This document shows, in pieces, positions 5,667 to 58,509 of a stretch of 62,083 nucleotides of DNA. The translations under genes were made by a program, and so were the position numbers. Source of the DNA: a virus. Its lineage: Duplodnaviria; Caudoviricetes. The notes beneath the pieces were generated by a model, which saw nothing but the letters and a program-made list of their open reading frames with translations, searched no databases and was not told where the DNA came from. Numbering within the stretch: the stretch's first letter is position 1; each line of letters starts with the position of its first letter. Where the stretch lies: positions 1 through 62,083 of IMG/VR virus record IMGVR_UViG_3300003471_000084. One strand, given 5' to 3'.

Positions 5667-6902
5667 ATGGAGAAGCTAATCGAAAAGCTTAACGCTGCAT
5701 CCAGAGCTTATTATAGCGGAACAGGCGAAATCATGTCAGACAAAGAGTTTGATACTCTATATGATGAGTTGAAAAAGCTGGAACATGAGACAGGAATAGT
5801 CTTACCAAATAGCCCGACACGAAATGTTGGGTATGAAGTTGTGTCTTCACTTTCAAAAACGCAACATGAGTATCCTTCCCTGTCTCTGGACAAGACCAAA
5901 GACCGGGATGACATGGTTCGTTGGCTTGGAGATCATCAAGGGGTTTTGTCTTGGAAATTAGATGGTTTAACTGTCATTCTGACTTACGATAACGGTAAGC
6001 TGGTAAAAGCTGCAACTCGTGGTGACGGAAATATTGGCGAGAACATCATCCACAATGCGCTATATTTCAAAGGCGTCCCCCATCGTATTGAGGATAAACG
6101 CCATATTGTTATTCGTGGCGAAGCTGTTATCCAACACGATACGTTTGAACGCATCAATGAATCCCTACCAGGCGATAAGCAATATAAGAATCCTCGAAGC
6201 ATGGTTTCGGGAGCAACAAGACTTCTTGATTCAAAGAAATCTTCCACATACGAAATAATCTTTATCCCCTTCGATTTGGTTAACGCTAGAGAGCTTGGGT
6301 TTGATTGTGTCGTAGAGAGTTTGATGCATATTTCCAGTATTGGAATGACACCTGTCGATTGGACGCCTGTCCGTGATAAGGATATTTCCGAGATTATTGA
6401 CCTCAAAGAACAAGAGGTGAAATTTTTTCCATATTCTACGGACGGCTTGGTTATAGTGTTCGATGATTTGTCTATCTGTGAAAAACTCGGAGCAACAGGT
6501 AAACATCCAAGATATGCAAAAGCTTTTAAATGGCCTGATACTCTTAAAACTACTGTTCTTCGAGGAGTTGATTGGTCAGTGGCAAAGAGCGGATTAATTA
6601 GCCCCGTTGCTATATTTGATCCGGTGGAACTTGAAGGAACTACTGTCAGAAGAGCCGGACTCCATAATCTTAGCATCATGCAAGAGCTAGGTCTCGGAAT
6701 CGGTGACCATATTAAAGTTTACAAAGCCAATATGATAATTCCTCAGATTTATGAGGATGTCGAGAAGACAACCAACATCCCTATTCCAACCGTATGCCCA
6801 GCGTGCGGTTCAGAGATAGAACGTCGAATTGGTGCAAATGGGAGGTCGGAATTCCTATATTGCATAAACAAGTCTTGCTCAGCGAAAGGAGAAAATAAAT
6901 GA
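5667..6902 (+). CDS. ligA: NAD-dependent DNA ligase, short form without HhH/BRCT
   Basis: AYY...SDKEFD (domain Ia), KLDG adenylation motif, TRGDG, OB fold, C-x2-C...C-x4-C zinc finger at the C-terminus. Confidence 0.9.
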   Translation: MEKLIEKLNAASRAYYSGTGEIMSDKEFDTLYDELKKLEHETGIVLPNSPTRNVGYEVVSSLSKTQHEYPSLSLDKTKDRDDMVRWLGDHQGVLSWKLDGLTVILTYDNGKLVKAATRGDGNIGENIIHNALYFKGVPHRIEDKRHIVIRGEAVIQHDTFERINESLPGDKQYKNPRSMVSGATRLLDSKKSSTYEIIFIPFDLVNARELGFDCVVESLMHISSIGMTPVDWTPVRDKDISEIIDLKEQEVKFFPYSTDGLVIVFDDLSICEKLGATGKHPRYAKAFKWPDTLKTTVLRGVDWSVAKSGLISPVAIFDPVELEGTTVRRAGLHNLSIMQELGLGIGDHIKVYKANMIIPQIYEDVEKTTNIPIPTVCPACGSEIERRIGANGRSEFLYCINKSCSAKGENK

Positions 6903-8294: not shown

Positions 8295-8331
8295 CATCAA
8301 CTAAAGTTCTAAATTTGAAAGGAGAAAAATC

Positions 8332-8883
8332 ATGAAGGTATTAAGACAAAGAGAATTGGAAGTTAAGAATATTCGGGTTGGTGACCAGATCGTCATCCCG
8401 TTGGCTGAGCTTGGTGAATTTACCGCAACTGCGCAGAAAATCACAGACAAAGGACCGTTGTTCTTGTTTGACGAATGCATTGCAAAGCAGCCTATGAATA
8501 AGAAATGGACCAACAAAGGCGGTTATGAAAAATCGGATCTCCGAAAGTGGATCAACACGACGTTGCTGGATGCATTTCCGGAAGAATTGAAGAACAGGAT
8601 GAACAATCTTACCATTCCTACATACGGCCAGATATTCGGCCATGACGATTGGTATGATCGTGCTATAGAGCCTGACAGTGACGAGCAGTTTCCTCTCATG
8701 GTAATAAGAAAAAACCGTATTGCCGACTTCAACAACGACTACGAATGGTACTGGCTGGCAAACGCAACGAGAGAAGAAGTGTCTGCGTCTTCTTTCGCTC
8801 GTGTGTACCACGATGGCGGTACGTACTACGACGGCGCGTCGATCTCTCTTGGGGTTCGTCCGGCATTCGTGTTGGTTGACTAG
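8332..8883 (+). CDS. Remote DGR target: stand-alone DUF6273/C-type-lectin-like protein
   Basis: C-terminal VR matches TR; GGYEKSDL, IPTYGQIFG, QFPL, WYWL and GVRPAF motifs parallel those of 55076..56050. Confidence 0.88.
   Translation: MKVLRQRELEVKNIRVGDQIVIPLAELGEFTATAQKITDKGPLFLFDECIAKQPMNKKWTNKGGYEKSDLRKWINTTLLDAFPEELKNRMNNLTIPTYGQIFGHDDWYDRAIEPDSDEQFPLMVIRKNRIADFNNDYEWYWLANATREEVSASSFARVYHDGGTYYDGASISLGVRPAFVLVD
8780..8863 (+). repeat. DGR variable repeat VR2
   Basis: 84 bp colinear with TR 57119-57202; 15 mismatches, all at TR adenines. Confidence 0.95.
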
Positions 8884-9710: not shown

Positions 9711-9791
9711 GGTTCTTCTCTTCGCGAAAATAACACAGCCTTTAATGGAAGAACAAAGTAAACTTTTCTAAATTTGAAAGGAGAAATAACA

Positions 9792-19017: not shown

Positions 19018-19056
19018 GGAGCGCTGGTTAGAGATGGCTGGCGCTCCATTTCTTTT
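19018..19056 (+). terminator. Rho-independent terminator
   Basis: GGAGCGC...GCGCTCC followed by T-rich tract. Confidence 0.65.
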
Positions 19057-19071
19057 GAAAGGAGAAAGACA

Positions 19072-19980
19072 TTGTCGTTTTGGAAAGATTTCTTTGGAAA
19101 TTCTAAAGTAAGGCAGCGGAGGGCACAATCACAAGCAACCATGTCCCACACATCAAAGCCGATTTTGTCGCCAGAACCTGATCCAGACATTCAAGGAAGA
19201 CCGAAGCCAGAGCCTAAACCCGATATTCCTAAACGTGAACCGAAACTTGTTCCTAAAAGGCGAAGCGAAGCCATTCATGATCATGAAAAGGAGTTCTTGC
19301 AGATATTTAAGCAGCTTACCTATCAGCATAGATCGTGGGATGTCTGGAAGGACTTTGTCGTTATGGCTGCCTGCGCTTTGTCCAACCCAGTTGACTCATC
19401 TCATTATGATGAGCGAGAAGCTATTTACATGCAAATAATCAAGACATACAAAAAGTCTGAACAGGAACTTTTTCCTCAACTACTCGCCGAGGTCGTTATG
19501 GCTCTGGAGAAAAATCCTGAGCAGGACTTCTTAGGTCATATTTTCATGGGACTTGACCTTGGCAGTGATTCGAAAAAACAGATCTTCACACCATACCATG
19601 TTTGTCAGCTTATGGCTGAGGTAACAATGGGCGACTTTGTCCAGGAAGTTAAAGATAAAGGCTACATCACAATTTGCGATCCGTGCTGCGGAGCTGGAGC
19701 AACTTTGATCGCCAGTCTTAATGTGGCGAAAGAGAAGTTAGGAAAAGAAAGACTTAACTTCCAGAACCACGTTCTCTTTGCTGCTCAAGACATCGACCAG
19801 ACGGCGGCGCTTATGTGCTATATTCAGCTATCGCTTCTTGGAGTGGCGGCTTACATAAAAATTGGTAATACGCTGACAGATCCGATGGTATCTGGCGATT
19901 CGCTTGAAAACTATTGGTTTACACCGATGTACTTTTCTGACGTGTGGGTTATGCGTCGGCTTATTAGAGGGTCGAAGTGA
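19072..19980 (+). CDS. N6-methyltransferase-like SAM-binding protein lacking motif IV
   Basis: QIFTPYHV, DPCCGAGATL and AQDID motifs; no NPPY/F before the stop. Confidence 0.7.
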   Translation: MSFWKDFFGNSKVRQRRAQSQATMSHTSKPILSPEPDPDIQGRPKPEPKPDIPKREPKLVPKRRSEAIHDHEKEFLQIFKQLTYQHRSWDVWKDFVVMAACALSNPVDSSHYDEREAIYMQIIKTYKKSEQELFPQLLAEVVMALEKNPEQDFLGHIFMGLDLGSDSKKQIFTPYHVCQLMAEVTMGDFVQEVKDKGYITICDPCCGAGATLIASLNVAKEKLGKERLNFQNHVLFAAQDIDQTAALMCYIQLSLLGVAAYIKIGNTLTDPMVSGDSLENYWFTPMYFSDVWVMRRLIRGSK

Positions 19981-21918: not shown

Positions 21919-21958
21919 TCGTTTCTGAATGGGGTTTCTATTTTGAAAGGAGAAAATC

Positions 21959-22417
21959 ATGAACATTGTAGGAACTATATCTTTTGGCAAAAGAATTCTC
22001 GATGTATATTCTTCCGTCGACGAGCCTTTGTTCCGGGCTTCCGATGTAGCTAATATTGTCGAGTACAGTCCGGGTAATACGTGGTCGATGTTGAGGATGT
22101 GCGAAGAAGACGAAAAGCTGAACCTACCAATGGTAGTTGCAGGTCAGAGACGATCTGTAAGCTTTATCACCGAATCGGGTCTGTATAACATATTGGCCCA
22201 GAGCCGCACTCCTATTGCCCGCGGATGGAGAAGAATCATTCACGATGAGCTTATCCGACTAAGACATTCTCGAGGTAAGAATATTATCGAGCAGTTCGAA
22301 GATTGGGATCACGAGCTGGATACGATATTTATTGATCCAGAAACCGGCATAATGATGCAATCTGTCACTGTCCAAGGTGGGGACGTCATTCAAGTGCCTT
22401 ATAAAAAGGAGGCGTGA
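21959..22417 (+). CDS. BRO-N family protein (antirepressor-like)
   Basis: PLFRASDVA...FITESGLYNILAQSRTP. Confidence 0.8.
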   Translation: MNIVGTISFGKRILDVYSSVDEPLFRASDVANIVEYSPGNTWSMLRMCEEDEKLNLPMVVAGQRRSVSFITESGLYNILAQSRTPIARGWRRIIHDELIRLRHSRGKNIIEQFEDWDHELDTIFIDPETGIMMQSVTVQGGDVIQVPYKKEA

Positions 22418-22571: not shown

Positions 22572-22596
22572 TTTTTCTTTTGAAAGGAGAAATAGC

Positions 22597-23127
22597 ATGA
22601 GTTATCAATATGACCAATACCTTGCTCGACATAAAGAAAATGTGAAAAAAGGGTTTGATTGGATTCATCAACATCTTCCAGATTTGGTTAAAGAGGCCGA
22701 TAATGCGGAATGGTTGACAGGGTTTGCTCACGATCAGTCCAAGTCGGAACCGGATGAGTACGACGCTTATGATAAATATTTTTATGGAGGAAATCGTTCC
22801 TTCGCTGTTGTCCAGGCTTTCAATAAGGCCTGGCTTTTTCACATTCATCGTAACCCTCATCACTGGCAATATTGGGTTCTTATCCACGATGACCCCAACG
22901 AGCCCGAAGAATGCATTGAAATGCCGTACAACTATATTATCGAAATGATTTGCGACTGGTGGGCATTCAGTTGGGCCAAAGGAGATCTGACTGAAATATT
23001 TAAGTGGTGGGATGAGCACAAGGAATATATCAAGTTACATCCCAATAGTCGCAGAATGGTGGAGAATATCCTTAACCAAATCGATAAGAGACTGATCGAA
23101 AAGGAGAATAATAATGGTCAAGCTTGA
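22597..23127 (+). CDS. DUF5662-like HD-fold phosphohydrolase
   Basis: H...HDQSK...HIHRNPHHW...EMICDW. Confidence 0.7.
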   Translation: MSYQYDQYLARHKENVKKGFDWIHQHLPDLVKEADNAEWLTGFAHDQSKSEPDEYDAYDKYFYGGNRSFAVVQAFNKAWLFHIHRNPHHWQYWVLIHDDPNEPEECIEMPYNYIIEMICDWWAFSWAKGDLTEIFKWWDEHKEYIKLHPNSRRMVENILNQIDKRLIEKENNNGQA

Positions 23128-28603: not shown

Positions 28604-28934
28604 GCCCACTTTTTGAAAATAGGAAGTTGGTCTTTTTGGAATTTGGACCGATTTTGGCAAAGTATACGGACGAAAAACGCCTTTACTTTTCATTTTTGCC
28701 CACTTTGTATGGGTTTTTACCCATCTTTGAGAGATGAAAGTGGGCTTGAAAATTTGGACCCATTTTCTGAAAACGGGGGTTTTGTGGATCTTTTTTGTGA
28801 AAAAAGGCTGATTTGCGCAAATTTATTTTGAAGAAGAATGAAAAAGCCCACTTGCCCACTTTTATTTCTATTTAATTGTGATAAAAAGATTAAAGATATT
28901 AAAGAGTTTGGTCAATAAAAGTGGGTAAATGGGC
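28604..28934. other. Candidate replication origin with GCCCACTT iterons
   Basis: GCCCACTT at 28604, 28698, 28846, 28854; inverted copies at 28738, 28919, 28927 (the last two imperfect); AT-rich core 28862-28916. Confidence 0.6.
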
Positions 28935-29077: not shown

Positions 29078-29866
29078 ATGAAACGAAAAATTTTAGCGAT
29101 GCTAGTCGCTTTGACATTCGTAATATCGTTAGTTGGATGTAGTGGGTCGGCTCTATCCGATGATCAAATTAATATGCCCTCTTCGTCTAAGAAGATGAAG
29201 GGTGTTAACTACCAAGAAGTTATCGCTCAACTGCAAGAAGCTGGTTTTACAAATGTTGAAACAGAAGTTTTAAACGATTTGGTTCTTGGATTGACGACCA
29301 AAGATGGCGAAGTCGAGAAAGTAGCTGTAGATGGTGATACTCTCTTTAGCACCGATGATAAGTTTTCCAAGGATGCGAATATTATAGTGACTTATCATAC
29401 ATTCCCTGCTAAAGAGGAAAATACAAATAAGGAATCGGAAGCAACTCAACAACCTACAGAAAAACTCGAAACTAAAGACGAACATCTTACTGTTGACAAT
29501 AGTGATGATCTCTCTGCTCTCTTACAGCTCAAAGATCCAACGGATTCAAGTGTAGAAGAGTTTGCCGATAAACATTATGGACAAACAGTAGAATTTAATG
29601 GTCGTATCGATTACATCACAAATCACGGTGATTATAAAACTCGATGGGATCTTTTAGTGTCTTCTGGAGATTACGACGAGAACACTCAAACAGGCCCTAC
29701 TTTTAAATTTAACGATGTTGGATTACAACAGTTAGGGATTAAGGATTTGTTCCTTCCGGACTTTGTTAAAGTCGGAACCAACATCAGCATAGTTGCAAAG
29801 ATTGGTAAATATGACCCAACGTCTGGAATTTTCATTCTTAACCCAATATCGATAACAGAAAGATAA
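29078..29866 (+). CDS. Lipoprotein (DUF4839-like), moron
   Basis: Signal peptide with LVGC lipobox; upstream TGGTATACT extended -10; terminator 29881-29917. Confidence 0.75.
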   Translation: MKRKILAMLVALTFVISLVGCSGSALSDDQINMPSSSKKMKGVNYQEVIAQLQEAGFTNVETEVLNDLVLGLTTKDGEVEKVAVDGDTLFSTDDKFSKDANIIVTYHTFPAKEENTNKESEATQQPTEKLETKDEHLTVDNSDDLSALLQLKDPTDSSVEEFADKHYGQTVEFNGRIDYITNHGDYKTRWDLLVSSGDYDENTQTGPTFKFNDVGLQQLGIKDLFLPDFVKVGTNISIVAKIGKYDPTSGIFILNPISITER

Positions 29867-30858: not shown

Positions 30859-33543
30859 ATGAATCCCATAGCGGAAGACATTTTAAAGCATTATGGAACG
30901 CCAAAACGTTCTGGTCGCTATCCTTGGGGTTCGGGCGACAATCCTTACCAACACAGCGGAGACTTTCTTAGTCGAGTTGAAGAGCTTAAAAAGAAAGGAT
31001 TGACCGAAAAGCAGATAGCGGAAACTTTTGGTCTTACCACCTCCCAACTAAGAACTCAGCGATCTTTAGCAAAAGATGAACGACGTGCTCTTGATGTTGC
31101 TACAGCCAGAGGTCTTCGCGAAAAAGGATATAGTCTAAACGAGATTGCGGAAAAGATGGGTTACAACAATGACTCGTCTGTGCGTTCTCTTCTCGATGAG
31201 GGTTCCGAAGCTCGTATGAATCAGGCGAAGAAAACTGCTGACTTTCTGAGAAAGCAGATCGATGAAAAAGGGATGATCGATGTTGGCGTTGGTGTTGAGA
31301 GGGAATTAGGTATTTCTAAAGAGAAACTTAGTCAAGCTCTGTACATATTGGAAATGGAAGGCTATCCCGTTTATGGTGGCGGCGTTCCACAGGTTACCAA
31401 TGCCGGAAAGCAAACCAACATCAAAGTTATCTGTCCTCCGGGAACAGAACACAAAGAAATATATCAGTTTGATAAGATCAATTCTGTCACTGATTATGTG
31501 TCTCACGATGGAGGCGATACTTTCGACACTTTTGTCTATCCAAAAAGCATGGATTCTAAACGTGTTCAGATTCGTTATAAGGAAGAAGGCGGCGCAGACA
31601 AAGACGGAGTTATCGAACTTCGCAGAGGTGTCGACGATCTGGCCTTAGGTGATTCTCATTATGCTCAAGTTCGAATTCTGGTAGATGGAAAGAAGTATAT
31701 CAAAGGAATGGCTATCTATTCAGATGATCTTCCGGATGGTGTTGATGTAATGTTTAACACAAATAAGAAAGTTGGAACTCCGAAAGGCGATGTTCTTAAA
31801 AACATTACTGCGGACCCTGACAATCCGTTCGGTTCTCTAATCAAAGCCGGTGGACAAAGTTATTACATCGACAAAAATGGAGAACGCCAGCTTTCCCTAA
31901 TTAATAAGAGAGCAGAAGAAGGCGATTGGGGTGAATGGGCGGACAAGTTACCATCTCAGTTTCTATCAAAACAGAGTATGACTCTGATAAAGAAACAGCT
32001 TGGTTTGGCGGCTGCCGACAAAATAGCTGAATTTGATGAGATTTGTTCTCTTACGAATCCTACTGTTAAAAAGGCTCTCTTGAAATCTTTTGCTGATGAT
32101 TGTGATTCGGCTGCCGTGCATCTACAGGCTGCTGCTTTACCACGACAGAAGTATCAGGTTATCCTCCCGATCACATCGATGAAAGATACTGAGGTCTATG
32201 CTCCGAATTACGAAAACGGAGAGAAAGTAGCATTGGTAAGATTTCCTCATGGTGGAACGTTTGAGATTCCTGTATTGACCGTGAACAACAAGCAGTCCGA
32301 TGCTCGACGAATTCTTGGAAATGCTCTCGATGCGGTTGGTATCAATAGTAAAGTTGCAGAGCGTTTGTCCGGCGCTGATTTTGATGGTGATACAGTCATG
32401 GTCATTCCTATGAGCGGTAAAGTCAAGATCACTTCTACAAAACCGCTTGAAGGTCTTGAAGGATTCGATTCTAAAATGACTTATGGTCCTGGATCGTATA
32501 AAGAAGGTAGTATCAGGTTGATGAAAAACACCCAGACAGAAATGGGAAAAATCTCAAACCTGATTACTGACATGACTTTGAAAGGCGCCACAGATAAAGA
32601 ACTCGCAAGAGCCGTCCGCCATAGTATGGTTGTCATTGATGCCGAGAAACACAAACTCAATTATAAACAAAGCGAGATAGATAACGGAATCTCTTCTCTT
32701 AAGAAAAAGTATCAAGGAACTGTCGATGAAGATGGTAAATACCATGAAGGCGCCGCTACTCTAATTTCGAGAGCTAAGTCTGAGACTACTGTTCTTAAAA
32801 GAAAAGGAAGCCCAATCATCGATAAAGAAACCGGTGAACAAAGTTACAAAGAAGTCCGTGAGGAGTACATCGATAAGAAGACGGGTAAGGTGAAAATCAG
32901 AACTCAAGGCAGCACAAAGATGGCAGAAACAAGAGATGCTTATACCCTATCTTCAGGAACACCCCAGGAAGAAGCCTATGCTGACTACGCCAATCGAATG
33001 AAGGCCCTTGCCAACCAAGCTCGCAAAGAAATGATGAATACTGGTAAGATTGCCTATTCTTCTTCGGCTAAGGCGACCTATCAAAGGGAAGTAGACTCCC
33101 TAACAGCCCAACTCAATATAGCTTTAAAGAATGCCCCACGTGAACGGCAGGCCCAGGTTTCTGCAAATGCAACCGTTGATGCGAAAAAGCAAGCCAATCC
33201 CGACATGACAAATAGCGAGATAAAGAAAGCTAAACAACAAGAGCTAACAAAAGCTCGTGCTGCTGTTGGTGCTAGGCGTGAACCGATTAAGGTCTCCGAT
33301 CGCGAATGGGAAGCTATTCAAGCAGGCGCAATAAGTGAGAACAAGTTGAATCAGATCATCAACAATGTTGACATTGATAGTCTTCGTCAGCGAGCAACTC
33401 CTCGTGCCACGACAAAGCTTAGCTCGGCTAAGGTGAATAAGATTTCGTCGATGAGTGCTTCTGGTTACAACACCGCCGAGATAGCGAAAGCTCTAGGTGT
33501 GTCCCCATCTACTGTGTCCAACTACCTAAAAGGAAAGGAGTGA
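30859..33543 (+). CDS. Putative single-chain two-barrel (YonO/RdRP-like) RNA polymerase with terminal HTH domains
   Basis: KDGVI, QVR...KG, VRFP, SGADFDGD (32371-32391), MGKISN, VIDAEK in the order seen in cellular RdRP-like enzymes. Confidence 0.78.
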   Translation: MNPIAEDILKHYGTPKRSGRYPWGSGDNPYQHSGDFLSRVEELKKKGLTEKQIAETFGLTTSQLRTQRSLAKDERRALDVATARGLREKGYSLNEIAEKMGYNNDSSVRSLLDEGSEARMNQAKKTADFLRKQIDEKGMIDVGVGVERELGISKEKLSQALYILEMEGYPVYGGGVPQVTNAGKQTNIKVICPPGTEHKEIYQFDKINSVTDYVSHDGGDTFDTFVYPKSMDSKRVQIRYKEEGGADKDGVIELRRGVDDLALGDSHYAQVRILVDGKKYIKGMAIYSDDLPDGVDVMFNTNKKVGTPKGDVLKNITADPDNPFGSLIKAGGQSYYIDKNGERQLSLINKRAEEGDWGEWADKLPSQFLSKQSMTLIKKQLGLAAADKIAEFDEICSLTNPTVKKALLKSFADDCDSAAVHLQAAALPRQKYQVILPITSMKDTEVYAPNYENGEKVALVRFPHGGTFEIPVLTVNNKQSDARRILGNALDAVGINSKVAERLSGADFDGDTVMVIPMSGKVKITSTKPLEGLEGFDSKMTYGPGSYKEGSIRLMKNTQTEMGKISNLITDMTLKGATDKELARAVRHSMVVIDAEKHKLNYKQSEIDNGISSLKKKYQGTVDEDGKYHEGAATLISRAKSETTVLKRKGSPIIDKETGEQSYKEVREEYIDKKTGKVKIRTQGSTKMAETRDAYTLSSGTPQEEAYADYANRMKALANQARKEMMNTGKIAYSSSAKATYQREVDSLTAQLNIALKNAPRERQAQVSANATVDAKKQANPDMTNSEIKKAKQQELTKARAAVGARREPIKVSDREWEAIQAGAISENKLNQIINNVDIDSLRQRATPRATTKLSSAKVNKISSMSASGYNTAEIAKALGVSPSTVSNYLKGKE

Positions 33544-33550
33544 ACTAACC

Positions 33551-33802
33551 ATGCAAAACACATGCATGTTAACTACGTTTGACAATCCTTTCAATCCGTT
33601 CGAACAGTTCACTTCTTGGCTTTTGTTCGACATGGAAAAAGGATACAACTCTTGTGCTTACTTGGCAAGAATTGCTCGAACTTCTGATCAGCTTTCGGAA
33701 GAAGAAAACAATTTGGAAGTTGAAAGAGCGATTGATGAGATAGTCAAGCATGACTTCCGTAATATCTACAAGAAAGTAAAACAACAAGTTACAAGTGCTT
33801 AA
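33551..33802 (+). CDS. Hypothetical phage protein
   Basis: RBS AAAGGAG; LTTFDNPFNPF motif. Confidence 0.7.
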   Translation: MQNTCMLTTFDNPFNPFEQFTSWLLFDMEKGYNSCAYLARIARTSDQLSEEENNLEVERAIDEIVKHDFRNIYKKVKQQVTSA

Positions 33803-33883
33803 ACGGATTGTTTACTTGTTTCGAAAAGTGTTTAGTTTATTTCTTTATTAGAATTTACTACAACATCCAACTACTGATAACTA

Positions 33884-33952
33884 TGGGGAGGGGTCCGTAA
33901 AAAGCACACCCCCCTCCGTCATCGCGGCCCTCCTCAAAAATTCCCCGGAGGA
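33884..33952. other. Candidate genome-end/packaging (cos-like) region
   Basis: GC-rich non-coding G- and C-tracts upstream of the terminase/HNH module. Confidence 0.4.
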
Positions 33953-33972
33953 CATATTTGAGAGGGGTTTTC

Positions 33973-34107
33973 GGTTTCTGTATAGCATTTAAAAGAGCTC
34001 GCAAGGTTTGTCAATGGTCAAAAACCATTTTTTTCAATCCTCCTTTTCTCCTTTCAAGTTTTGTTTAGGATGAACCTTGTGAGTTCTTTTAAATGCTATG
34101 CAAAACC
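33973..34107 (+). ncRNA. Long hairpin RNA with anti-Shine-Dalgarno loop
   Basis: 33-bp stem 33980-34012 / 34069-34101 in which all 5 non-Watson-Crick pairs are G-U on the + strand; loop contains TCCTCCTTTTCTCCTTTCAA. Confidence 0.7.
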
Positions 34108-34182
34108 AATACTAAAGTCCTCCAAAGCCAAACAGGACTACTACCAAAGTCCACGATATTTCACAGAGAGGAGGTAGTAAGG

Positions 34183-34524
34183 ATGAGGAAAGCTAAAGTC
34201 GTTAGCTCTTCTTCGGAACCTTCGCGAATGATGAGACCGGCTTTATCTCCTGAAGCTAGGGAAAACCAATTGGTATCCTTGGCTGTCGACCTTGCTGAAC
34301 AACAATTGAGAGACGGAACAGCCTCCTCTCAGGTTATTACACACTACCTAAAGATAGGGTCAACGAAAGAAAAGGTCGAAAAGGAGATTCTTGAAAAGCA
34401 GAAAGAATTGATGGAAGCAAAGACACAAGCCATTAAATCTCAACAAAGAAGCGAAGAGTTATTTTCAGAAGCTATCAGAGCCTTCGGCGTTTACAGTGGA
34501 CGTGGTGATTCCCATGATGATTAA
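34183..34524 (+). CDS. Putative terminase small subunit
   Basis: Position upstream of HNH and terL; size; RBS GGAGG. Confidence 0.5.
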   Translation: MRKAKVVSSSSEPSRMMRPALSPEARENQLVSLAVDLAEQQLRDGTASSQVITHYLKIGSTKEKVEKEILEKQKELMEAKTQAIKSQQRSEELFSEAIRAFGVYSGRGDSHDD

Positions 34525-34930
34525 AACATATTCGGAATTATCCAGACTGCAAACTTTTGAAGAACGGTACAAATACTTACGGCTTCGCGGATCTGTCGGA
34601 GAAGAAACATTCGGTTTCGATAGATTCATCAATCAAAACTTCTATAAATCTCGAGAGTGGCAATCCATCCGAGATTTTGTAATCGTTAGAGACAACGGAT
34701 GTGATCTTGGTGTCGAGGGTTATGAGATTTATGGAACAATATTGATTCATCACATGAATCCACTTTTGACAAAAGACATCCTCGATAAAAGCGAATTTTT
34801 GTTGAACCCAGAGTATCTGATATCAACAATTCTTACAACTCACAATGCAATTCACTATGGTGATGAAGGTCTTCTAATAAAAGCACCCATTCAAAGAACC
34901 AAAAACGATATGTGTCCATGGAGGCACTAA
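34514..34930 (+). CDS. HNH endonuclease (packaging associated)
   Basis: FYKSREW...RDNGC...IHHMNP...N...THNAIH. Confidence 0.8.
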   Translation: MMIKTYSELSRLQTFEERYKYLRLRGSVGEETFGFDRFINQNFYKSREWQSIRDFVIVRDNGCDLGVEGYEIYGTILIHHMNPLLTKDILDKSEFLLNPEYLISTILTTHNAIHYGDEGLLIKAPIQRTKNDMCPWRH

Positions 34931-34948
34931 TAAAAGGAGGAACAGTAA

Positions 34949-35248
34949 ATGTATCAGGAAAATTCCACTAGAGAAACCGGTTCGGTTGTTGAGCAACAGA
35001 CTGAGCTGGAAGTCAGCAGGAATGAGTTCGAGGAATTCAATGACATCCTGCTTGGCATCGTAACTGGATGTGAGAAACTCAATGTACGTAAAGAGCCTAG
35101 CTCGACGGCCGCCATTATCTGCGAGATTGAGAATCGAACCGAAGTCATGATCGAAGAGGTGGAGTCCACAGAAGACTTCTACAAAGTCTGCACTGCTTCT
35201 GGGATCGATGGTTTCTGCATGAGGAAGTTTATCGAGATTCAGTCATAA
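34949..35248 (+). CDS. SH3b-domain protein
   Basis: LNVRKEPS...FYKV...GFC motif. Confidence 0.7.
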   Translation: MYQENSTRETGSVVEQQTELEVSRNEFEEFNDILLGIVTGCEKLNVRKEPSSTAAIICEIENRTEVMIEEVESTEDFYKVCTASGIDGFCMRKFIEIQS

Positions 35249-36000: not shown

Positions 36001-37746
36001 ATGGCGTTATCGAACACTGCCGTACCAAAATATTACGGCATGTTTCGAGATGCCGTAATTCGAGGAGAGATACCGGTATGTAAGGAAATCTCTATGGAGA
36101 TGAATCGTATCGACGATCTCATAGCCAATCCAGGTGTTTTCTACGATGATCAAGCTGTCGAGGGATTTATCGAGTATTGTGAGAATGAACTGACTTTGAC
36201 AGATGGCGCAGACCTCACTCTTCTCGACACTTTCAAAGTATGGGCTGAGCAAATCTTCGGATGGTATTATTTCGAAGAACGAAGTGTCTATGAGCCGTAT
36301 CCAGATGGGCACGGTGGCCGCTACGTCAACAAGACTATCAAGCGTAGGCTCATCAACAAACAATATCTGATCGTTGCCAGAGGTGCAGCGAAGTCGATGT
36401 ATGGGTCCTGTATTCAGAACTACGGTTTGAACGTGGACACAGCAACAACGCATCAGATAACCACTGCTCCAACAATGAAGCTGGCCGAAGAGGTTTTGTC
36501 TCCAATACGAACTGCTATCGTGCGATCGCGTGGTCCACTTTACAAGTTTCTAACCGATGGCTCATTGCAGAATACCACGGGATCAAAAGCGAATCGAGTG
36601 AAGCTTGCCGCCACAAAAAAGGGTGTTGAGAATTTTCTAACTGGTTCTTTGCTAGAAATCCGACCAATGAGTATCAATAAGCTTCAAGGTCTAAGGTCTA
36701 AGTACAACACGGTAGATGAATGGCTTTCGGGCGACATTCGAGAGGATGTTGTTGGCGCTATCGAACAAGGAGCATCCAAGGTTGACGACTACCTCATCGT
36801 TGCAATGAGTTCCGAAGGTACGGTCCGTAATGGAGCCGGCGATACAATCAAAATGGAGTTGATGGAAATCCTTAAGGGCGACTACATAGCCCCTAATGTG
36901 TCCATTTGGTACTATAAGCTCGATTCTATCGACGAGGTATCTGATCCTGATATGTGGCCGAAAGCCAATCCAAATATCGGAAAGACTGTCAGCTACGAGA
37001 CTTATCAGCGTGACGTCGAAAGAGCGGAAAAAGCTCCAGCAGCACGGAACGACATTTTAGCAAAGCGCTTCGGTATTCCCATGGAAGGCTACACTTATTA
37101 TTTTACATATGAGGAGACCCTTCCACACAAGAGACGGAAATACTGGCAAATGCCTTGTTCGCTCGGTGCGGATCTTTCGCAGGGTGACGACTTCTGTGCG
37201 TTTACATTTCTATTTCCTCTACCAAGAGGTGCTTTCGGGATAAAAACTCGAAACTACATTTCTTCATTAACCCTGATGAAACTCCCAGCCGCGATGCGAA
37301 TTAAATATGATAAATTCATGGCTGAGGGCAGTCTCGTTGTTCTTGAGGGAACAGTGTTAGACATGATGCAGGTTTATGAAGACTTGGATAATCATATAAC
37401 CGAATGTAATTACGATGTTCGATGTTTTGGATTTGACCCCTACAACGCCAAAGAGTTCGTTGAAAGGTGGCAATCCGAAAACGGTCCATTCGGTATCGAG
37501 AAAGTTATACAGGGAGCCAAAACAGAATCCGTTCCTTTGGGTGAGTTAAAGAAACTTTCCGAGGAGCGGATGCTTTTATTTGACGAGGATTTAATGACCT
37601 TCGCCATGGGCAACTGTATAACTCTTGAGGACACGAATGGAAATCGAAAACTGCTTAAAAAGCGATATGATCAGAAAATCGATGCGGTTGCCGCTATGAT
37701 GGATGCTTATATCGCTTACAAGCTTAACAAAGATGCTTTTGAGTAA
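36001..37746 (+). CDS. terL: Terminase large subunit
   Basis: ARGAAKS Walker A, VDEW Walker B, GADLS nuclease motif, FDPYN, KIDAVAA. Confidence 0.92.
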   Translation: MALSNTAVPKYYGMFRDAVIRGEIPVCKEISMEMNRIDDLIANPGVFYDDQAVEGFIEYCENELTLTDGADLTLLDTFKVWAEQIFGWYYFEERSVYEPYPDGHGGRYVNKTIKRRLINKQYLIVARGAAKSMYGSCIQNYGLNVDTATTHQITTAPTMKLAEEVLSPIRTAIVRSRGPLYKFLTDGSLQNTTGSKANRVKLAATKKGVENFLTGSLLEIRPMSINKLQGLRSKYNTVDEWLSGDIREDVVGAIEQGASKVDDYLIVAMSSEGTVRNGAGDTIKMELMEILKGDYIAPNVSIWYYKLDSIDEVSDPDMWPKANPNIGKTVSYETYQRDVERAEKAPAARNDILAKRFGIPMEGYTYYFTYEETLPHKRRKYWQMPCSLGADLSQGDDFCAFTFLFPLPRGAFGIKTRNYISSLTLMKLPAAMRIKYDKFMAEGSLVVLEGTVLDMMQVYEDLDNHITECNYDVRCFGFDPYNAKEFVERWQSENGPFGIEKVIQGAKTESVPLGELKKLSEERMLLFDEDLMTFAMGNCITLEDTNGNRKLLKKRYDQKIDAVAAMMDAYIAYKLNKDAFE

Positions 37747-55075: not shown

Positions 55076-56050
55076 ATGAAAATTACAGATTACGAAAAGG
55101 TCTCAAACCTCGCAATAAACAATGTGTTTTTGATTGACGGGGATAATGGTACCAAAACAATCATGGCTTCCGATCTTGCGAAAGCTTTGGTTAAGCTTCT
55201 AAGCTCTAAGGATTTTATTTCAGGGGTAAATCTTTCAGAGCTTGATCAGATCAATGCTCTGTCAGCAAGTGACAAGATTCTTATTGGAACGTCGGCCGGA
55301 AACAAGGCTATCGGAGCAAATGACGCGCTTTTTGCAATGCTTGATGCTTTCATTGCTCCGGAGCAGCGTCGTGTTACTTTCAGAGGAAAGAATTTAGGAT
55401 CAGTCTTTACCCCTGAGCAAAAGACAAACATTCAAAATGGAACATTCAAAGGGTTTTTCCTTGGTGACTATTGGGTTATCGGCGGCCACACCTGGCGTAT
55501 TGTAGACTTTAATTATTGGTATAATTGCGGGGATACTGCATTTACCAATAATCATCTTGTCATTATGCCTGACGTTGCTTTGTATAATGCACAAATGAAT
55601 GCTGAAAATGTAACAACTGGCGGCTATGTTGGATCGCTGATGTATACGACCAATCTTGCAAATGCTAAAACCATTATCAATTCAGCTTTCGGCAGTTCGG
55701 TGCTAACGCATAGAGATCTTCTCGTAAATGCCGTAGCGAATGGCGCTCCTTCAGGTCATGCATGGTACGATTCTTCGGTGGAACTCCCTAACGAAATTAT
55801 GATGTATGGAAGTTATATCTTTTCTCCGGCTGCAAATGGAACCACGATCCCGTATCTTTATACCATCAACAAAACACAATTGGCGCTGTTCCAGGTCGTA
55901 CCAAAATTCATTGTGAATAGATCATACAATCAATGGTTGAGGGATGTCGTGTCTGCGTCTTTTTTCGCTTTTGTGGGCAGCATTGGCCTTACGACCTACC
56001 ACTACGCGTCGAACTCTTTTGGGGTTCGTCCGGCATTCCCTATTGGTTAG
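55076..56050 (+). CDS. DGR target 1: putative receptor-binding tail protein with C-terminal lectin-like domain
   Basis: End of tail module; C-terminal VR; ends GVRPAFPIG. Confidence 0.88.
   Translation: MKITDYEKVSNLAINNVFLIDGDNGTKTIMASDLAKALVKLLSSKDFISGVNLSELDQINALSASDKILIGTSAGNKAIGANDALFAMLDAFIAPEQRRVTFRGKNLGSVFTPEQKTNIQNGTFKGFFLGDYWVIGGHTWRIVDFNYWYNCGDTAFTNNHLVIMPDVALYNAQMNAENVTTGGYVGSLMYTTNLANAKTIINSAFGSSVLTHRDLLVNAVANGAPSGHAWYDSSVELPNEIMMYGSYIFSPAANGTTIPYLYTINKTQLALFQVVPKFIVNRSYNQWLRDVVSASFFAFVGSIGLTTYHYASNSFGVRPAFPIG
55950..56033 (+). repeat. DGR variable repeat VR1
   Basis: 84 bp colinear with TR; 14 mismatches, all at TR adenines. Confidence 0.95.
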
Positions 56051-57118: not shown

Positions 57119-57202
57119 TGTCTGCGTCTTATTTCGCTAATGTGAACAACAATGGCAATACGAACTACAACAACGCGTCGAACTCTAATGGGGTTCGTCC
57201 GG
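57119..57202 (+). ncRNA. DGR template repeat (TR)
   Basis: Intergenic between avd and RT; ten AAY triplets and 23 adenines; differs from VR1 and VR2 only at A. Confidence 0.95.
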
Positions 57203-57312
57203 ATTCTCTGACTAACCAACAGAGAAGGAGATGTTGTCCTTTCCTACAAGGAGAAATAACAAAGCCGGACGCAATTTACTACGGTAAGTATTGCTATAAC
57301 GGTGAATAATTT

Positions 57313-58509
57313 ATGACTTATGAGGAAATCGCTTGCGATGCCAACAACTTGTATGGGGCTTACAAGGCTTCTGTGAAAGGTAGCAAATGGAAAGAAACTA
57401 CTCAGAAGTTCATGATGAATTTCTTGAGGTACATCTTTTCTATTCAAGAGGACCTTATCAATCGCACTCTTCAAAATAGTGCGACAGATGAGTTTTCGCT
57501 ATCTGAACGAGGCCGAGTAAGACCCATTACAAGTATTCCAACAAGAGATCGCATAATCAGACACGTGCTATGTGACGAAGTTTTACTTCCAGAAGTCCGG
57601 AAGCACATCATATACGATAACGGAGCCTCGATTAAAGGGAGAGGAATCTCTCATTCAAGAAATCGATTCGAGGTTCATCTAAGAAAGTATTATAAGGCAC
57701 ACGGTAGCGAAGGTTATATTCTGTTTGGCGATTTCAGTAAGTTTTACGATAATATTATTCACGAAATTGCCAAGAGGGAGCTTTTGAAGCTGCTCGGAGA
57801 CGACGAGTTCGTAGATTGGTTACTTACTCTGATATTTGACGAATTTAGAATTGACGTTTCTTATATGTCAGATGAAGAGTACACAACTTGTATGACCGAC
57901 ACCTTCAACAAACTTGAATATAGGTTAATCCCTAAAGATCTTCTCACCGGCGAGAAATGGATGGATAAGTCTGTTAACATTGGCGATCAGTTGAGCCAGA
58001 TTATCGGTATCTACTATCCGCATCGAATGGACAATTACGTTAAATACGTAAGAAGCCAGAAGTTCTATGGAAGATATATGGATGACTGGTATATTATGAG
58101 CCCAAGCAAAGAAGAATTGCAGGATTTGCTTGAAAATATTCGAGTAATAACCAGCGAACTTGGCATTCATATCAACGAAAAGAAAACTCATATCGCAAAG
58201 ATTAACAGCACCTACAAATATTTGCAGGTTAAATACTCACTTACGAGTACCGGTAAAATCATCAAGCGAATGAACCCAACACGAGTTACCGCCATGCGTA
58301 GAAAACTTAAGAAGCTGGCCGTTAAAGTTCGAAACGGTGAAATCATCTACGATCATGTCGAGAATATGTTTCGTAGTTGGATGGGAAGTTTCTACAAGCT
58401 GTTATCAAAGCAACAACGACTCAACTTAATATCGCTCTATGAGGACCTCTTCGATAAAAAGATTAAGGTCGTCAACAAAAAACTTATCGTAGAGGAGGTT
58501 CACACATAA
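57313..58509 (+). CDS. DGR reverse transcriptase
   Basis: RDRIIRH, GDFSKFYDNI, IGDQLSQ, YGRYMDD, INEKKT; adjacent to TR. Confidence 0.95.
   Translation: MTYEEIACDANNLYGAYKASVKGSKWKETTQKFMMNFLRYIFSIQEDLINRTLQNSATDEFSLSERGRVRPITSIPTRDRIIRHVLCDEVLLPEVRKHIIYDNGASIKGRGISHSRNRFEVHLRKYYKAHGSEGYILFGDFSKFYDNIIHEIAKRELLKLLGDDEFVDWLLTLIFDEFRIDVSYMSDEEYTTCMTDTFNKLEYRLIPKDLLTGEKWMDKSVNIGDQLSQIIGIYYPHRMDNYVKYVRSQKFYGRYMDDWYIMSPSKEELQDLLENIRVITSELGIHINEKKTHIAKINSTYKYLQVKYSLTSTGKIIKRMNPTRVTAMRRKLKKLAVKVRNGEIIYDHVENMFRSWMGSFYKLLSKQQRLNLISLYEDLFDKKIKVVNKKLIVEEVHT

What the first reader, a model, noticed from the sequence alone, without database searches (positions are those of the whole stretch)
33973..34107. 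Long hairpin RNA displaying an anti-Shine-Dalgarno loop matched to early-gene RBSs
Seen: a 33-bp stem whose five non-canonical pairs are all G-U on the + strand, which argues for RNA-level selection. The loop contains TTTTCTCCTTTCAA (34044-34057), the reverse complement of TTGAAAGGAGAAAA. That RBS context occurs at 8315 and 21943 (14/14), 9774, 19055 and 22580 (13 nt), 3762 (12 nt), and as GAAAGGAGAAAA at 6884, 20009 and 21467. An overlapping TCCTCCTTTT matches AAAAGGAGGA-type RBSs. The element sits at the start of the late region. Inference: a trans-acting RNA that silences early (or host) translation at the early-to-late switch. The remote DGR target is one of the perfect matches.
Basis: partly seen in the sequence, partly recalled or inferred. 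Interest (0 to 1): 0.78.

Follow-up and report, generated by a model that had tools for sequence, protein, structure and literature searches.

The report
Conserved phage hairpin with anti-RBS loop
A long RNA hairpin just inside the packaging end of this phage genome is kept by compensatory changes in related phages of two bacterial phyla, and its loop is the mirror image of the ribosome-binding sites of the phage's own early genes, which suggests, but does not prove, an RNA switch acting on early protein synthesis.

Summary
The hairpin at 33973-34107 is real: 37 pairs, five of them G-U, one bulge. It starts 42 nt inside the left cos end, downstream of a YonO-like RNA polymerase gene and upstream of a conserved 113-aa gene, an HNH gene and the terminase gene.

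It was found in 45 of 46 distinct intergenic regions of IMG/VR relatives and in 10 of 14 named, more distant phages (Faecalibacterium, Lactococcus, Arthrobacter, Curtobacterium, Bifidobacterium). The arm sequences differ between lineages. In an alignment of 22 sequences, 17 of 30 pairs show compensatory changes and 97% of cells are paired. G-U outnumbers A-C 125 to 9 on the + strand, which points to a + strand RNA.

The loop always carries an accessible CUCCUUUC. It is complementary to stereotyped early-gene start regions: 14 nt in the window and up to 38 nt in relatives, with lineage-specific flanks.

It matches no Rfam family, and I found no description of it in the papers searched.

Expression, timing and action in trans are not shown. 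In the window, the whole loop is predicted to pair with late ribosome-binding sites as well as with early ones. My best reading is a trans-acting RNA against early start regions (confidence about 0.4). The main rival is a cis-acting leader or processing element.

The parts
33973..34107 (+). Long hairpin: 37-pair outer helix (five G-U pairs, C33978 bulged) closing a 60-nt apical region
   Evidence: conserved with compensatory changes
33976..34008 (+). Left arm of the ungapped 33-nt inverted repeat
34073..34105 (+). Right arm of the ungapped 33-nt inverted repeat
34044..34057 (+). Loop motif TTTTCTCCTTTCAA. Its core CTCCTTTC is invariant in 22 of 22 aligned relatives. It is antisense to the early-gene RBS context TTGAAAGGAGAAAA.
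   Evidence: predicted unpaired
34038..34047 (+). Second, window-specific anti-SD motif TCCTCCTTTT. It is complementary to AAAAGGAGGA at two late RBSs (34932, 40160).
33884..33960 (.). cos region. Ten related contigs end exactly at the position equivalent to 33922 (...GTCAT). The inferred 3' overhang is 33923-31 and the left virion end is at 33932. A conserved palindromic motif (AAAAATTCCCCGGAGGA...) lies just to its right.
30859..33543 (+). 894-aa YonO-like two-barrel RNA polymerase homologue with a GADFDGDTV motif and a C-terminal HTH. It is the last large gene before cos.
   Evidence: family placement from PMC2919709 and bioRxiv 10.1101/842583 (passages read)
33551..33802 (+). 83-aa conserved protein (phrog_4303), the last gene before cos
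34183..34524 (+). 113-aa conserved protein (phrog_4259), the first gene after the hairpin. Its homologue is gene 1 to 11 at the left end of actinophage genomes, and an HNH gene follows it.
34496..34930 (+). HNH endonuclease (phrog_4321)
36001..37746 (+). Terminase large subunit
8315..8328 (+). Early RBS context, 14/14 complementary to the loop. It serves gene 8332-8883 (DUF6273), which carries the remote DGR variable repeat.
21943..21956 (+). Early RBS context, 14/14 complementary to the loop. It serves gene 21959-22417 (Bro-N domain).
19055..19067 (+). Early RBS context, 13 nt. It serves gene 19072-19980 (N6_Mtase hit), the orthologue of the gene behind the 28-29-nt matches in relatives G007 and G008.
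6884..6895 (+). Early RBS context, 12 nt. It serves gene 6899-7684, a predicted membrane protein. By BLASTP its orthologues in relative G001 (sites 2801 and 4704) sit behind 14- and 12-nt matches; I infer from the protein sequences, without a test, that the genes behind the 21- and 29-nt matches in G008 belong to the same family.
9774..9786 (+). Early RBS context, 13 nt
22580..22592 (+). Early RBS context, 13 nt (gene 22597-23127, DUF5662)

Best explanation
The element is a structured RNA read from the + strand, the strand of all neighbouring genes. It lies at the head of the packaging and structural gene block, 42 nt inside the left cos end.

A stem of 30-37 bp holds up an apical region. In that region a short stretch is kept unpaired, and this stretch is the antisense copy of the phage's own stereotyped early-gene translation start region: the Shine-Dalgarno sequence GAAAGGAG plus lineage-specific flanks, and in some lineages the spacer and AUG as well.

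Proposed mechanism: once this RNA is made, its loop pairs with those start regions on the mRNAs of non-structural genes. That hides the ribosome-binding site. Where the duplex reaches 20-38 bp, it would also create an RNase III substrate. The result is lower translation of a subset of early genes. The long stem itself would protect the RNA, or be cut by RNase III to release a stable stem-loop.

Shown here: the structure, its covariation, its strand bias, the invariance and predicted accessibility of the motif, the complementarity, and the early-biased distribution of the matching RBS type.

Inferred: transcription, timing, action in trans, any RNase III step, and which polymerase makes the RNA. 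For the last point, the analogy is SPbeta YonO, whose late transcript starts upstream of an unannotated non-coding RNA.
For: Structure:
- A long inverted repeat (score 13 or more) is present in 45 of 46 distinct intergenic regions: the window plus 45 distinct sequences from 46 IMG/VR loci. The 46th, L037, shows a gapped hairpin in its fold.
- The RNAalifold consensus has 30 pairs, and 17 of them carry compensatory changes.
- 97.0% of cells are paired against 85.0% in shuffles (0 of 500 as high). There are 101 double-change cells against 31 (0 of 500). Slid controls give 32-46%.

Strand:
- G-U to A-C on the + strand is 125:9 over 42 distinct hairpins and 25:11 in ten distant phages.
- A tRNA-Leu gene on the + strand sits between the hairpin and the 113-aa gene in L046.

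Breadth:
- The same design with unrelated arm sequences occurs in FP_oengus and MT835495, in Arthrobacter phages Circum, Darby, Shepard, Shiba and Argan, and in Curtobacterium Eevee, Bifidobacterium BitterVaud1 and Lactococcus CHPC971.

Loop:
- CTCCTTTC is invariant in 22 of 22 sequences.
- Its opening energy is 0.73 against 3.13 kcal/mol, lower in 37 of 39 hairpins.
- It is almost the only sense-strand copy in each genome. Copies outside the hairpin: 0 in the window, G001, G002, G006, G007 and G009; 1 each in G005 and G008. The antisense (RBS) orientation occurs 8 to 30 times per genome.

Complementarity:
- All 11 exact matches of 12 nt or more in the window lie in the early half.
- Exact matches of the reverse-complemented loop to start regions in the same genome are 38 and 26 nt (G009), 29 nt (G007), 29, 28 and 21 nt (G008) and 27, 22 and 20 nt (G001). 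The flank variants are lineage-specific on both partners.
- In Circum, CTCTTGAAAGGAG precedes 4 non-structural genes and its reverse complement is in the loop.
- GAAAGGAG occurs in 15 of 47 early start regions and 0 of 35 late ones (Fisher p 9e-5). The conserved 12-mer is predicted to pair better with early than with late start regions (-11.4 against -9.6 kcal/mol, p 0.007).

Linkage to the gene, not to cos: in Eevee the hairpin sits directly before the 113-aa homologue but 1.9 kb from the genome end.

SPbeta analogy: PMC5467207, passages read.
Against: - There is no expression data. The only public runs that hold the stretch are contigs from wastewater libraries that may be DNA, so they say nothing about strand or ends.
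- In the window the whole loop is predicted to pair with late start regions as well as early ones (p 0.47; 13 of the top 20 are early against about 11.5 expected). Its second motif matches two late RBSs exactly.
- The core is a generic anti-SD, so it would pair with any strong RBS, including that of the downstream 113-aa gene (-24.6 kcal/mol, rank 11 of 87).
- A phage's own loop gives the strictly longest match in only 4 of 10 loop-versus-genome comparisons.
- Some matched genes are orthologues, so shared start regions may partly reflect descent. Recombination between short repeats could also keep the copies identical.
- FP_oengus keeps the motif but has few matching start regions (longest match 13 nt; 3 GAAAGGAG in 20 kb).
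- Stoichiometry is unfavourable: one RNA copy per transcript against many mRNAs.
Confidence: 0.4

Rival explanations
1. Cis-acting leader of the packaging and structural operon. The long stem is an RNase III processing site or a 5' (or 3') stabiliser. The anti-SD loop modulates translation of the adjacent 113-aa gene by pairing with its RBS, or has no partner in trans at all.
For: - The element always lies directly upstream of the 113-aa gene, even when that gene is 1.9 kb from cos (Eevee).
- Stems of 30-37 bp are classical RNase III substrates (general knowledge, not tested).
- The RBS of the 113-aa gene is a good predicted partner (-24.6 kcal/mol, rank 11 of 87).
- No + strand terminator was found between the hairpin and the gene.
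- The + strand G-U bias fits this reading equally well.
Against: - Complementarity to the start region of the 113-aa gene is limited to the SD core, about 9 pairs (my reading of the sequences printed). Matches to other genes reach 14-38 nt.
- A tRNA gene lies between the hairpin and the gene in the L046 lineage, so tRNA processing would separate them.
- This reading does not explain lineage-specific flanks shared with early start regions, or the near-exclusive sense-strand copy of the motif.
Confidence: 0.25
2. A DNA-level element. Either it is part of the packaging recognition site (cosB-like terminase binding with bending), or it is a strand-specific single-stranded DNA hairpin, such as a priming site or a hairpin promoter for the phage polymerase.
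For: - It lies 42 nt to the right of the cos cut, between cos and the packaging genes. That is the position of lambda cosB (recalled).
- G-T wobble pairs are also tolerated in single-stranded DNA, so the strand bias alone does not separate RNA from + strand ssDNA.
- The neighbouring gene encodes an unusual RNA polymerase whose promoter is unknown.
Against: - Protein-binding half-sites would not keep 30-37 bp of pairing through compensatory changes with a one-strand G-U bias.
- Streptomyces DrGrey, Gordonia Avazak and Microbacterium Count share the cos motif and the 113-aa and HNH genes but have no such hairpin.
- In Eevee the hairpin is 1.9 kb from the end.
- A separate palindromic motif conserved across phyla sits next to the cut and can account for terminase recognition.
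- A DNA role does not explain 20-38-nt identity to translation start regions.
Confidence: 0.1
3. The - strand is the functional one. The loop carries a real RBS and start codon for a leftward minigene or short ORF, or a ribosome-loading site on an antisense transcript.
For: - On the - strand the loop reads as a canonical start region identical to those of early genes, including ATG at RBS spacing, in about 8 lineage groups: window MVFDH, 6-aa, 14-44-aa, 22-aa, 3-aa and 65-aa frames.
- In Circum the frame is annotated as gp2.
- ATG at that spacing looks more frequent than I would expect by chance (my estimate, not computed).
Against: - No start codon at 4-12 nt in five lineage groups: the L023, L036 and L017 groups, Darby/Shepard, and Argan.
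- The peptides share neither length nor sequence.
- All neighbouring genes are on the + strand.
- On the - strand the G-U pairs become A-C mismatches (125 to 9), and the fold is 11 kcal/mol weaker.
- No - strand promoter was found to the right of the hairpin, and a weak terminator-like site on the - strand at 34152-34135 precedes it.
Confidence: 0.08
4. A mimic of the 3' tail of 16S rRNA that acts as a decoy for a protein or nuclease that recognises that tail (host defence, maturation enzyme, or a phage factor), rather than pairing with mRNAs.
For: - The invariant core equals the anti-SD core of 16S rRNA (recalled, not from a call).
- It is kept unpaired.
- It is conserved across hosts of two phyla that share that tail.
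Against: - No candidate partner was identified.
- The lineage-specific flanks match the phage's own start regions, not rRNA.
- BitterVaud1 has a variant core, CTCCTTAC.
Confidence: 0.07

Closest known systems
Start-associated sequences (SAS) of Cluster K mycobacteriophages (Pope et al. 2011, PMC3203893; passages read)
   Same: - A conserved motif that includes the SD core sits a few bases upstream of the start codons of many non-structural genes and extends beyond what 16S rRNA can pair with.
- It occurs in one orientation, with a single reverse copy that is not at a gene start.
- In Anaya I found 16 forward copies and one reverse copy at 59870, in the non-coding right end near cos.
- The authors left open whether a phage RNA or protein binds the motif. 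A 2024 paper still calls its role unknown (PMC11373665; passages read).
   Different: - The motif sequence differs (GGGATAGGAGCCC against TTGAAAGGAG...).
- The phages are unrelated and have no YonO-like polymerase.
- No conserved hairpin around the reverse copy has been described. My single fold of the Anaya site is inconclusive: the genome is GC-rich and the - strand folds as well.
Phage antisense RNAs that cover a ribosome-binding site: P22 sar, P1/P7 c4, lambda OOP (recalled, not read here)
   Same: A phage-encoded RNA whose exposed sequence is complementary to the translation start region of a phage mRNA and represses it.
   Different: Those RNAs have one dedicated target and are short. 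Here a single loop matches many start regions, sits on a 30-37-bp stem, is encoded far from its candidate targets, and is conserved across phyla. Its expression is not shown.
T4 RegB endoribonuclease (recalled)
   Same: In function: a phage device that shuts off early genes by attacking their Shine-Dalgarno sequences (GGAG).
   Different: RegB is a protein nuclease. Here the agent would be an RNA acting by base pairing.
Late operon of SPbeta transcribed by YonO (Forrest et al. 2017, PMC5467207; passages read)
   Same: A two-barrel single-chain RNA polymerase of the same broad family. [quoted passage not shown]
   Different: The polymerase in the window gave no tblastn hit to Bacillus phages at E 1e-5. 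The SPbeta non-coding RNA was not examined here, so any likeness between the RNAs is untested.
Gram-positive regulatory RNAs with C/U-rich loops that pair with SD sequences: RNAIII, RsaE/RoxS (recalled)
   Same: An unpaired pyrimidine-rich loop motif presented by a hairpin and complementary to SD regions of several mRNAs.
   Different: Those are chromosomal, have short stems and UCCC or CCCC motifs, and belong to Rfam families. This element hit no Rfam family.
Lambda cosB (recalled)
   Same: The position: immediately to the right of the cos cut and before the first packaging gene. Inverted sequence elements around a spacer.
   Different: cosB is a set of protein-binding sites in duplex DNA. 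Here pairing is kept by covariation with a one-strand G-U bias. The element is missing from relatives with the same cos motif and is detached from cos in Eevee.

Membership tests
Any Rfam 15 family | Score at or above the family's gathering threshold | tested here: not met
   Window 33000-35000 at E up to 10: only sub-threshold microRNA-precursor look-alikes (best 25.3 bits against a threshold of 118). Seven relatives at gathering thresholds: only a tRNA.
Intrinsic (Rho-independent) terminator | Short G+C-rich stem followed by a run of U | tested here: not met
   No + strand terminator-like site in 33500-34300. The right arm is followed by AAAACCAATACTAAAG.
cosB-type terminase recognition site | Adjacent to the cos cut in every phage that shares the packaging proteins | tested here: not met
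   Adjacent in the window and most relatives. It is 1.9 kb away in Eevee, and absent in DrGrey, Avazak and Count, which keep the cos motif and the 113-aa and HNH genes.
cosB-type terminase recognition site | Conservation of the DNA sequence of the half-sites rather than of pairing | tested here: not met
   Arm sequences differ between lineages while pairing is kept (17 of 30 pairs with compensatory changes). G-U to A-C is 125:9 on one strand.
Trans-acting antisense RNA against a ribosome-binding site | Exposed stretch complementary to the SD or start region of the target mRNAs | tested here: met
   12-14 nt in the window and 20-38 nt in G001 and G007-G009. The motif is predicted unpaired.
Trans-acting antisense RNA against a ribosome-binding site | The RNA is made as a + strand transcript | tested here: inconclusive
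   Only Logan contigs of libraries that may be DNA. Two short contigs span 33943-34357 and 33967-34359, with no strand or end information.
Trans-acting antisense RNA against a ribosome-binding site | Represses the targets, with rescue by compensatory mutations | not testable with these tools
   Needs reporter or phage genetics.
Start-associated sequence (SAS) system | Motif overlapping the SD upstream of many non-structural genes, in one orientation, with a lone reverse copy | tested here: met
   GAAAGGAG: 17 copies upstream and 1 downstream of the hairpin on the + strand, plus one reverse copy in the loop. The same pattern holds in G001, G002 and G005-G009.
Start-associated sequence (SAS) system | The Cluster K consensus sequence | tested here: not met
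   The motif here is TTGAAAGGAG(AAAA). The consensus printed in PMC3203893 is different. This is an analogue, not a member.
Invertible promoter segment (inverton) | The segment between the repeats is found in both orientations | tested here: not met
   The motif is on the gene-sense strand in all 22 aligned relatives and in all ten distant phages that have the element. No contig showed the inverted form.
Protein-coding minigene on the - strand | Conserved start codon and conserved peptide | tested here: not met
   The start codon is absent in five lineage groups. Frames run from 3 to 65 aa without similarity.

The most novel reading that the evidence does not exclude
Phages of the actinophage and Firmicutes supercluster that carry the YonO-like polymerase run a genome-wide translational switch built from two matched parts. 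One part is a stereotyped 'start-associated' module on a set of non-structural genes. The other is a single master RNA, the hairpin at the head of the packaging operon, whose loop is the antisense of that module. The two parts co-evolve, with lineage-specific flanks shared over 20-38 nt. The same logic, many forward motifs plus one reverse copy near cos, would explain the unexplained SAS motifs of Cluster K mycobacteriophages.
Probability: 0.3. Interest if true: 0.85.

Novelty: new variant of a known kind. Interest (0 to 1): 0.72.

Why it matters
If the RNA acts as proposed, it would be a phage timing device of an unusual sort: one conserved structured RNA aimed at a whole class of the phage's own ribosome-binding sites, kept from soil Arthrobacter phages to human-gut Firmicutes phages.

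It would give a concrete, testable partner for 'start-associated sequences'. These motifs have been known since 2011, and their role was still called unknown in 2024 (PMC3203893 and PMC11373665, passages read).

It would also add a regulatory layer to the little-studied phages that carry a YonO-like single-chain RNA polymerase.

Even if the function differs, this is a well-supported structured RNA family that matches nothing in Rfam. It also marks the cos site and the boundary between non-structural and structural genes in hundreds of uncultivated viral contigs.

Tried and rejected
- **Rfam:** no family.
- **PDB sequence search with the polymerase:** no hit at E up to 1.
- **Public runs:** 8 rows listed, none holding half of the sampled words. 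Four were laid; all are contigs, and the tool marked the two largest as possibly or probably DNA. They give no strand, start or end information. I treat the two short contigs over the hairpin as no evidence of expression.
- **Whole-loop duplex energies:** no difference between early and late start regions. I kept this as evidence against early-specific targeting.
- **Sigma-70 promoter scan of 33500-34300:** nothing on the + strand. By eye, candidate hexamers between cos and the stem are poor and not conserved, so the transcription start remains unknown.
- **Cis pairing with the RBS of the 113-aa gene:** not modelled, because a loop-to-downstream pairing is a pseudoknot that the folding tools cannot predict. 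Only a duplex energy was obtained.
- **A single conserved target gene:** rejected. The best matches fall on different genes, only partly orthologous.
- **Inverton, terminator, minigene:** see the membership tests.
- **Hairpin around the reverse SAS of mycobacteriophage Anaya:** one fold, inconclusive.
- **Papers.** Full-text term searches (hairpin, stem-loop, inverted repeat, promoter, non-coding) found no description of the element in PMC5513430, bioRxiv 10.1101/2020.01.10.891226 or bioRxiv 10.1101/842583. Library searches turned up none either.
- **ReqiPepy6:** only the 11-nt gap before its 113-aa homologue was inspected. The rest of that genome was not scanned.
Full report
**What is there.** The window is a complete 62,083-bp provirus record. 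Almost all of its genes are on the + strand.

Between the 83-aa gene at 33551-33802 and the 113-aa gene at 34183-34524 lies a 380-nt non-coding stretch. It holds an inverted repeat with arms at 33976-34008 and 34073-34105: 33 nt, 88% complementary, 64 nt apart.

- As + strand RNA, 33960-34120 folds at -59.8 kcal/mol (z -8.66). As - strand RNA it folds at -48.5 (z -5.46).
- In the fold of 33973-34107 the outer helix has 37 pairs, five of them G-U, with C33978 bulged. In the ungapped register there are three G-U pairs and one C-A mismatch.
- The loop carries TTTTCTCCTTTCAA at 34044-34057 and TCCTCCTTTT at 34038-34047.
- TCTCCTTTC occurs 14 times against 1.0 expected. Thirteen copies are GAAAGGAGA on the + strand, all below 25.2 kb. 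The only + strand copy is the loop.
- Only 4 long-range inverted repeats in the window reach the score threshold, and only this one has the motif in its loop.

**Genomic setting.** The gene at 30859-33543 encodes an 894-aa protein of phrog_4291, labelled 'RNA-dependent RNA polymerase' (E 0). It has a C-terminal HTH and a GADFDGDTV motif.

- Its relatives are the proteins of Faecalibacterium phage FP_oengus, Lactococcus phages, and many Arthrobacter, Gordonia and Streptomyces phages.
- A 2010 review places the phage 1706 protein among YonO-like two-barrel polymerases (PMC2919709; passages).
- A preprint describes this actinophage and Firmicutes supercluster and the DxDGD motif (10.1101/842583; passages).
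- Downstream lie the 113-aa protein (phrog_4259), an HNH endonuclease, a connector protein and the large terminase subunit.

In actinophages the polymerase gene is at the extreme right end of the linear genome and the 113-aa gene is near the left end. The cos site must therefore lie in this intergenic stretch. Two lines fix it:

- Of 32 related IMG/VR loci that stop short of the 113-aa gene, 10 end exactly at the position equivalent to 33922 (...CAT). One ends ten bases further on.
- The joined right and left ends of Arthrobacter phage Circum align with window ...CATCGCGGCCCT | CCTCAAAAATTCCCC.

The left virion end therefore corresponds to 33932, with an inferred 9-nt overhang at 33923-31. The hairpin starts 42 nt inside it.

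**Conservation and strand.**

- Among 46 distinct intergenic sequences (the window plus 45 from 46 loci whose polymerases are 76-82% identical), 45 have a long inverted repeat at the same place: arms 22-34 nt, loops 41-84 nt. The 46th shows a gapped hairpin in its fold.
- The arm sequences differ between lineages. In an alignment of 22 sequences, RNAalifold finds a 30-pair stem, and 17 of those pairs carry compensatory double changes.
- With that structure, 97.0% of cells pair against 85.0% in shuffles (0 of 500 as high). There are 101 double-change cells against 31 (0 of 500). Sliding the partner by 1-3 columns drops pairing to 32-46%.
- Transition mismatches between the arms are G-U on the + strand 125 times and A-C 9 times over 42 distinct hairpins. 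At column level, 18 columns show G-U states and 4 show A-C, all four at the ragged helix ends. These counts are not independent events, but the bias is too large for a mutation asymmetry alone, in my judgement.
- In ten distant phages the ratio is 25:11.

The pairing is therefore selected in a single strand of + polarity, which is the sense of all neighbouring genes. A + strand tRNA-Leu gene sits between the hairpin and the 113-aa gene in one lineage.

**Breadth.** The same design recurs with unrelated arm sequences in:

- FP_oengus and the gut contig MT835495;
- five Arthrobacter phages of several genera, with arms of 32-37 nt, loops of 53-125 nt, and an invariant CTCCTTTCAAGAG;
- Curtobacterium phage Eevee;
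- Bifidobacterium phage BitterVaud1, with a stem of about 40 bp and the variant core CTCCTTAC;
- Lactococcus phage CHPC971, in a shorter, gapped form.

That is 10 of the 14 named phages examined. I did not find it in Streptomyces DrGrey, Gordonia Avazak or Microbacterium Count, nor directly before the homologous gene of Rhodococcus ReqiPepy6.

In Eevee the hairpin is directly upstream of the 113-aa homologue but 1.9 kb from the genome end. The element therefore goes with that gene block, not with cos.

**The loop.**

- CTCCTTTC is invariant in 22 of 22 aligned sequences.
- The energy needed to open the motif averages 0.73 kcal/mol, against 3.13 for the median 8-mer of the same loops. It is lower in 37 of 39 hairpins; L037 was left out because its arms were mis-set.
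- In each complete relative the sense-strand copies of CTCCTTTC are almost only those of the hairpin, while the RBS orientation occurs 21-30 times.
- The RBS copies sit mostly on the polymerase side of the hairpin: 17 to 1 in the window, 16 to 3 in G001, 7 to 1 in G002, and 19:2, 26:4, 23:6, 23:6 and 26:2 in G005-G009 (my count by position).
- In the window, with my own rough gene calls, GAAAGGAG is in 15 of 47 early start regions and 0 of 35 late ones (Fisher p 9e-5). Overall SD strength is the same in both. So there are two SD 'flavours'.

**Complementarity beyond the SD.**

- The reverse complement of the loop matches the window's own start regions over 12-14 nt at 11 sites, all in the early half.
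- In relatives the matches are much longer and include the spacer and ATG or upstream flanks: 27, 22 and 20 nt in G001; 29 and 20 nt in G007; 29, 28 and 21 nt in G008; 38 and 26 nt in G009. The flank variants are shared by the loop and start regions of the same phage.
- In Circum the 13-mer CTCTTGAAAGGAG precedes four non-structural genes and its complement is in the loop.
- In a 10 x 10 comparison, a phage's own loop gives the strictly longest match for 4 loops and ties or wins for 5.
- The matched genes are only partly orthologous. They include a membrane-protein family and the methylase-like gene at 19072.

**Results against an early-specific silencer.**

- With the whole 64-nt loop of the window, predicted duplex energies are the same for early and late start regions (medians -19.1 and -18.9, p 0.47). 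The RBS of the 113-aa gene ranks 11th of 87.
- Only the family-conserved 12-mer favours early start regions (-11.4 against -9.6, p 0.007).
- The window's second motif matches two late RBSs 10/10.
- FP_oengus keeps the motif but has few matching start regions.
- There is no evidence of expression. The runs that hold the stretch are contigs of libraries that may be DNA.

**Other readings.**

- *A - strand minigene.* Not conserved: the start codon is absent in five lineage groups, and frames run from 3 to 65 aa.
- *A cosB-type DNA site.* This is contradicted by the covariation, the strand bias, the Eevee arrangement and the hairpin-less relatives. A separate palindromic motif beside the cut, conserved across phyla, can serve terminase.
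- *Terminator, inverton, known RNA family.* All excluded.
- *A cis-acting leader* (RNase III site, stabiliser, control of the 113-aa gene). This remains a serious rival. It shares the structural evidence but does not explain the long matches to distant start regions.

**Comparison with what is known.**

- The nearest described pattern is the start-associated sequences of Cluster K mycobacteriophages. These are a 13-bp motif containing AGGAG upstream of 11-19 non-structural genes, with a single reverse copy that is not at a gene start, and an unknown partner 'either RNA or protein' (PMC3203893; passages). Their role was still unknown in 2024 (PMC11373665; passages).
- In Anaya I found 16 forward copies and the reverse copy at 59870, in the non-coding right end. 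Whether it sits in a conserved hairpin is open.
- SPbeta YonO starts its late transcript upstream of an unannotated non-coding RNA (PMC5467207; passages). I did not examine that RNA.
- The comparisons with P22 sar, P1 c4, T4 RegB and Gram-positive SD-targeting RNAs are recalled, not read.

**Verdict.** This is a real structured element, conserved across two host phyla and read as + strand RNA. It matches no Rfam family, and I found no description of it in the papers searched. Its loop is an exposed antisense copy of the phage's own early translation start module. My preferred mechanism is pairing in trans with those start regions (confidence 0.4). A cis-acting leader role is second (0.25). Expression and function need experiments.

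Noticed in passing
window 33884-33960: The cos site can be placed to the base. Related contigs end at the equivalent of 33922, and the Circum right and left ends join at the equivalent of 33931|33932. A G-rich hairpin-like module lies left of the cut. A palindromic motif (AAAAATTCCCCGGAGGA) lies right of it, is conserved from Arthrobacter to Firmicutes phages, and is duplicated in Streptomyces DrGrey.
   Followed up: partly
window 57119-57209, 55950-56041, 8780-8868, 57313-58509: A diversity-generating retroelement. The reverse transcriptase ORF is at 57313-58509. A template repeat lies upstream of it. One variable repeat is at the 3' end of ORF 55076-56050. A second, remote variable repeat is at the 3' end of the early gene 8332-8883 (DUF6273). 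The repeats are 78-83% identical.
   Followed up: partly
window, all + strand start regions: Two Shine-Dalgarno 'flavours' of equal predicted strength. GAAAGGAG-type is found in non-structural genes (15 of 47) and never in structural genes (0 of 35). GGAGG-type tends the other way (16 of 47 against 19 of 35).
   Followed up: partly
window 1793-1820 / 1892-1919: Inverted repeat with 28-nt arms and a 71-nt spacer, between the integrase gene (538-1776, - strand) and the first rightward gene. It may be a regulatory or attachment-related element.
   Followed up: no
window 28846-28866 / 28914-28934: Inverted repeat with 21-nt arms and a 47-nt spacer, in the gap before ORF 29078-29866 (DUF4839).
   Followed up: no
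window 5540-5612: ARAGORN calls a tRNA-like gene whose anticodon it could not assign.
   Followed up: no
L104 (Mycobacterium phage Anaya) 59870: The single reverse-orientation start-associated sequence of Anaya lies in the non-coding right end, after the last gene and about 960 nt from the genome end. That is a similar junction to the one holding the hairpin here. One fold puts it at the edge of a long-range stem, but the genome is GC-rich and the - strand folds as well.
   Followed up: partly
window 33943-34357 and 33967-34359: Two runs of one wastewater study each hold a short contig that starts just inside the cos end or at the foot of the hairpin, and both stop near 34358. Nothing covers 33739-33942. 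The libraries may be DNA, so this could simply reflect the virion end.
   Followed up: partly
L046 6401-6487: A tRNA-Leu(CAG) gene is inserted between the hairpin and the 113-aa gene in one lineage of relatives. Microbacterium phage Count has a tRNA-Tyr at the equivalent left-end position.
   Followed up: partly
L006, last 30 nt: One related contig ends with a fold-back copy of the cos-proximal sequence. This is probably an assembly artefact at a physical DNA end.
   Followed up: no
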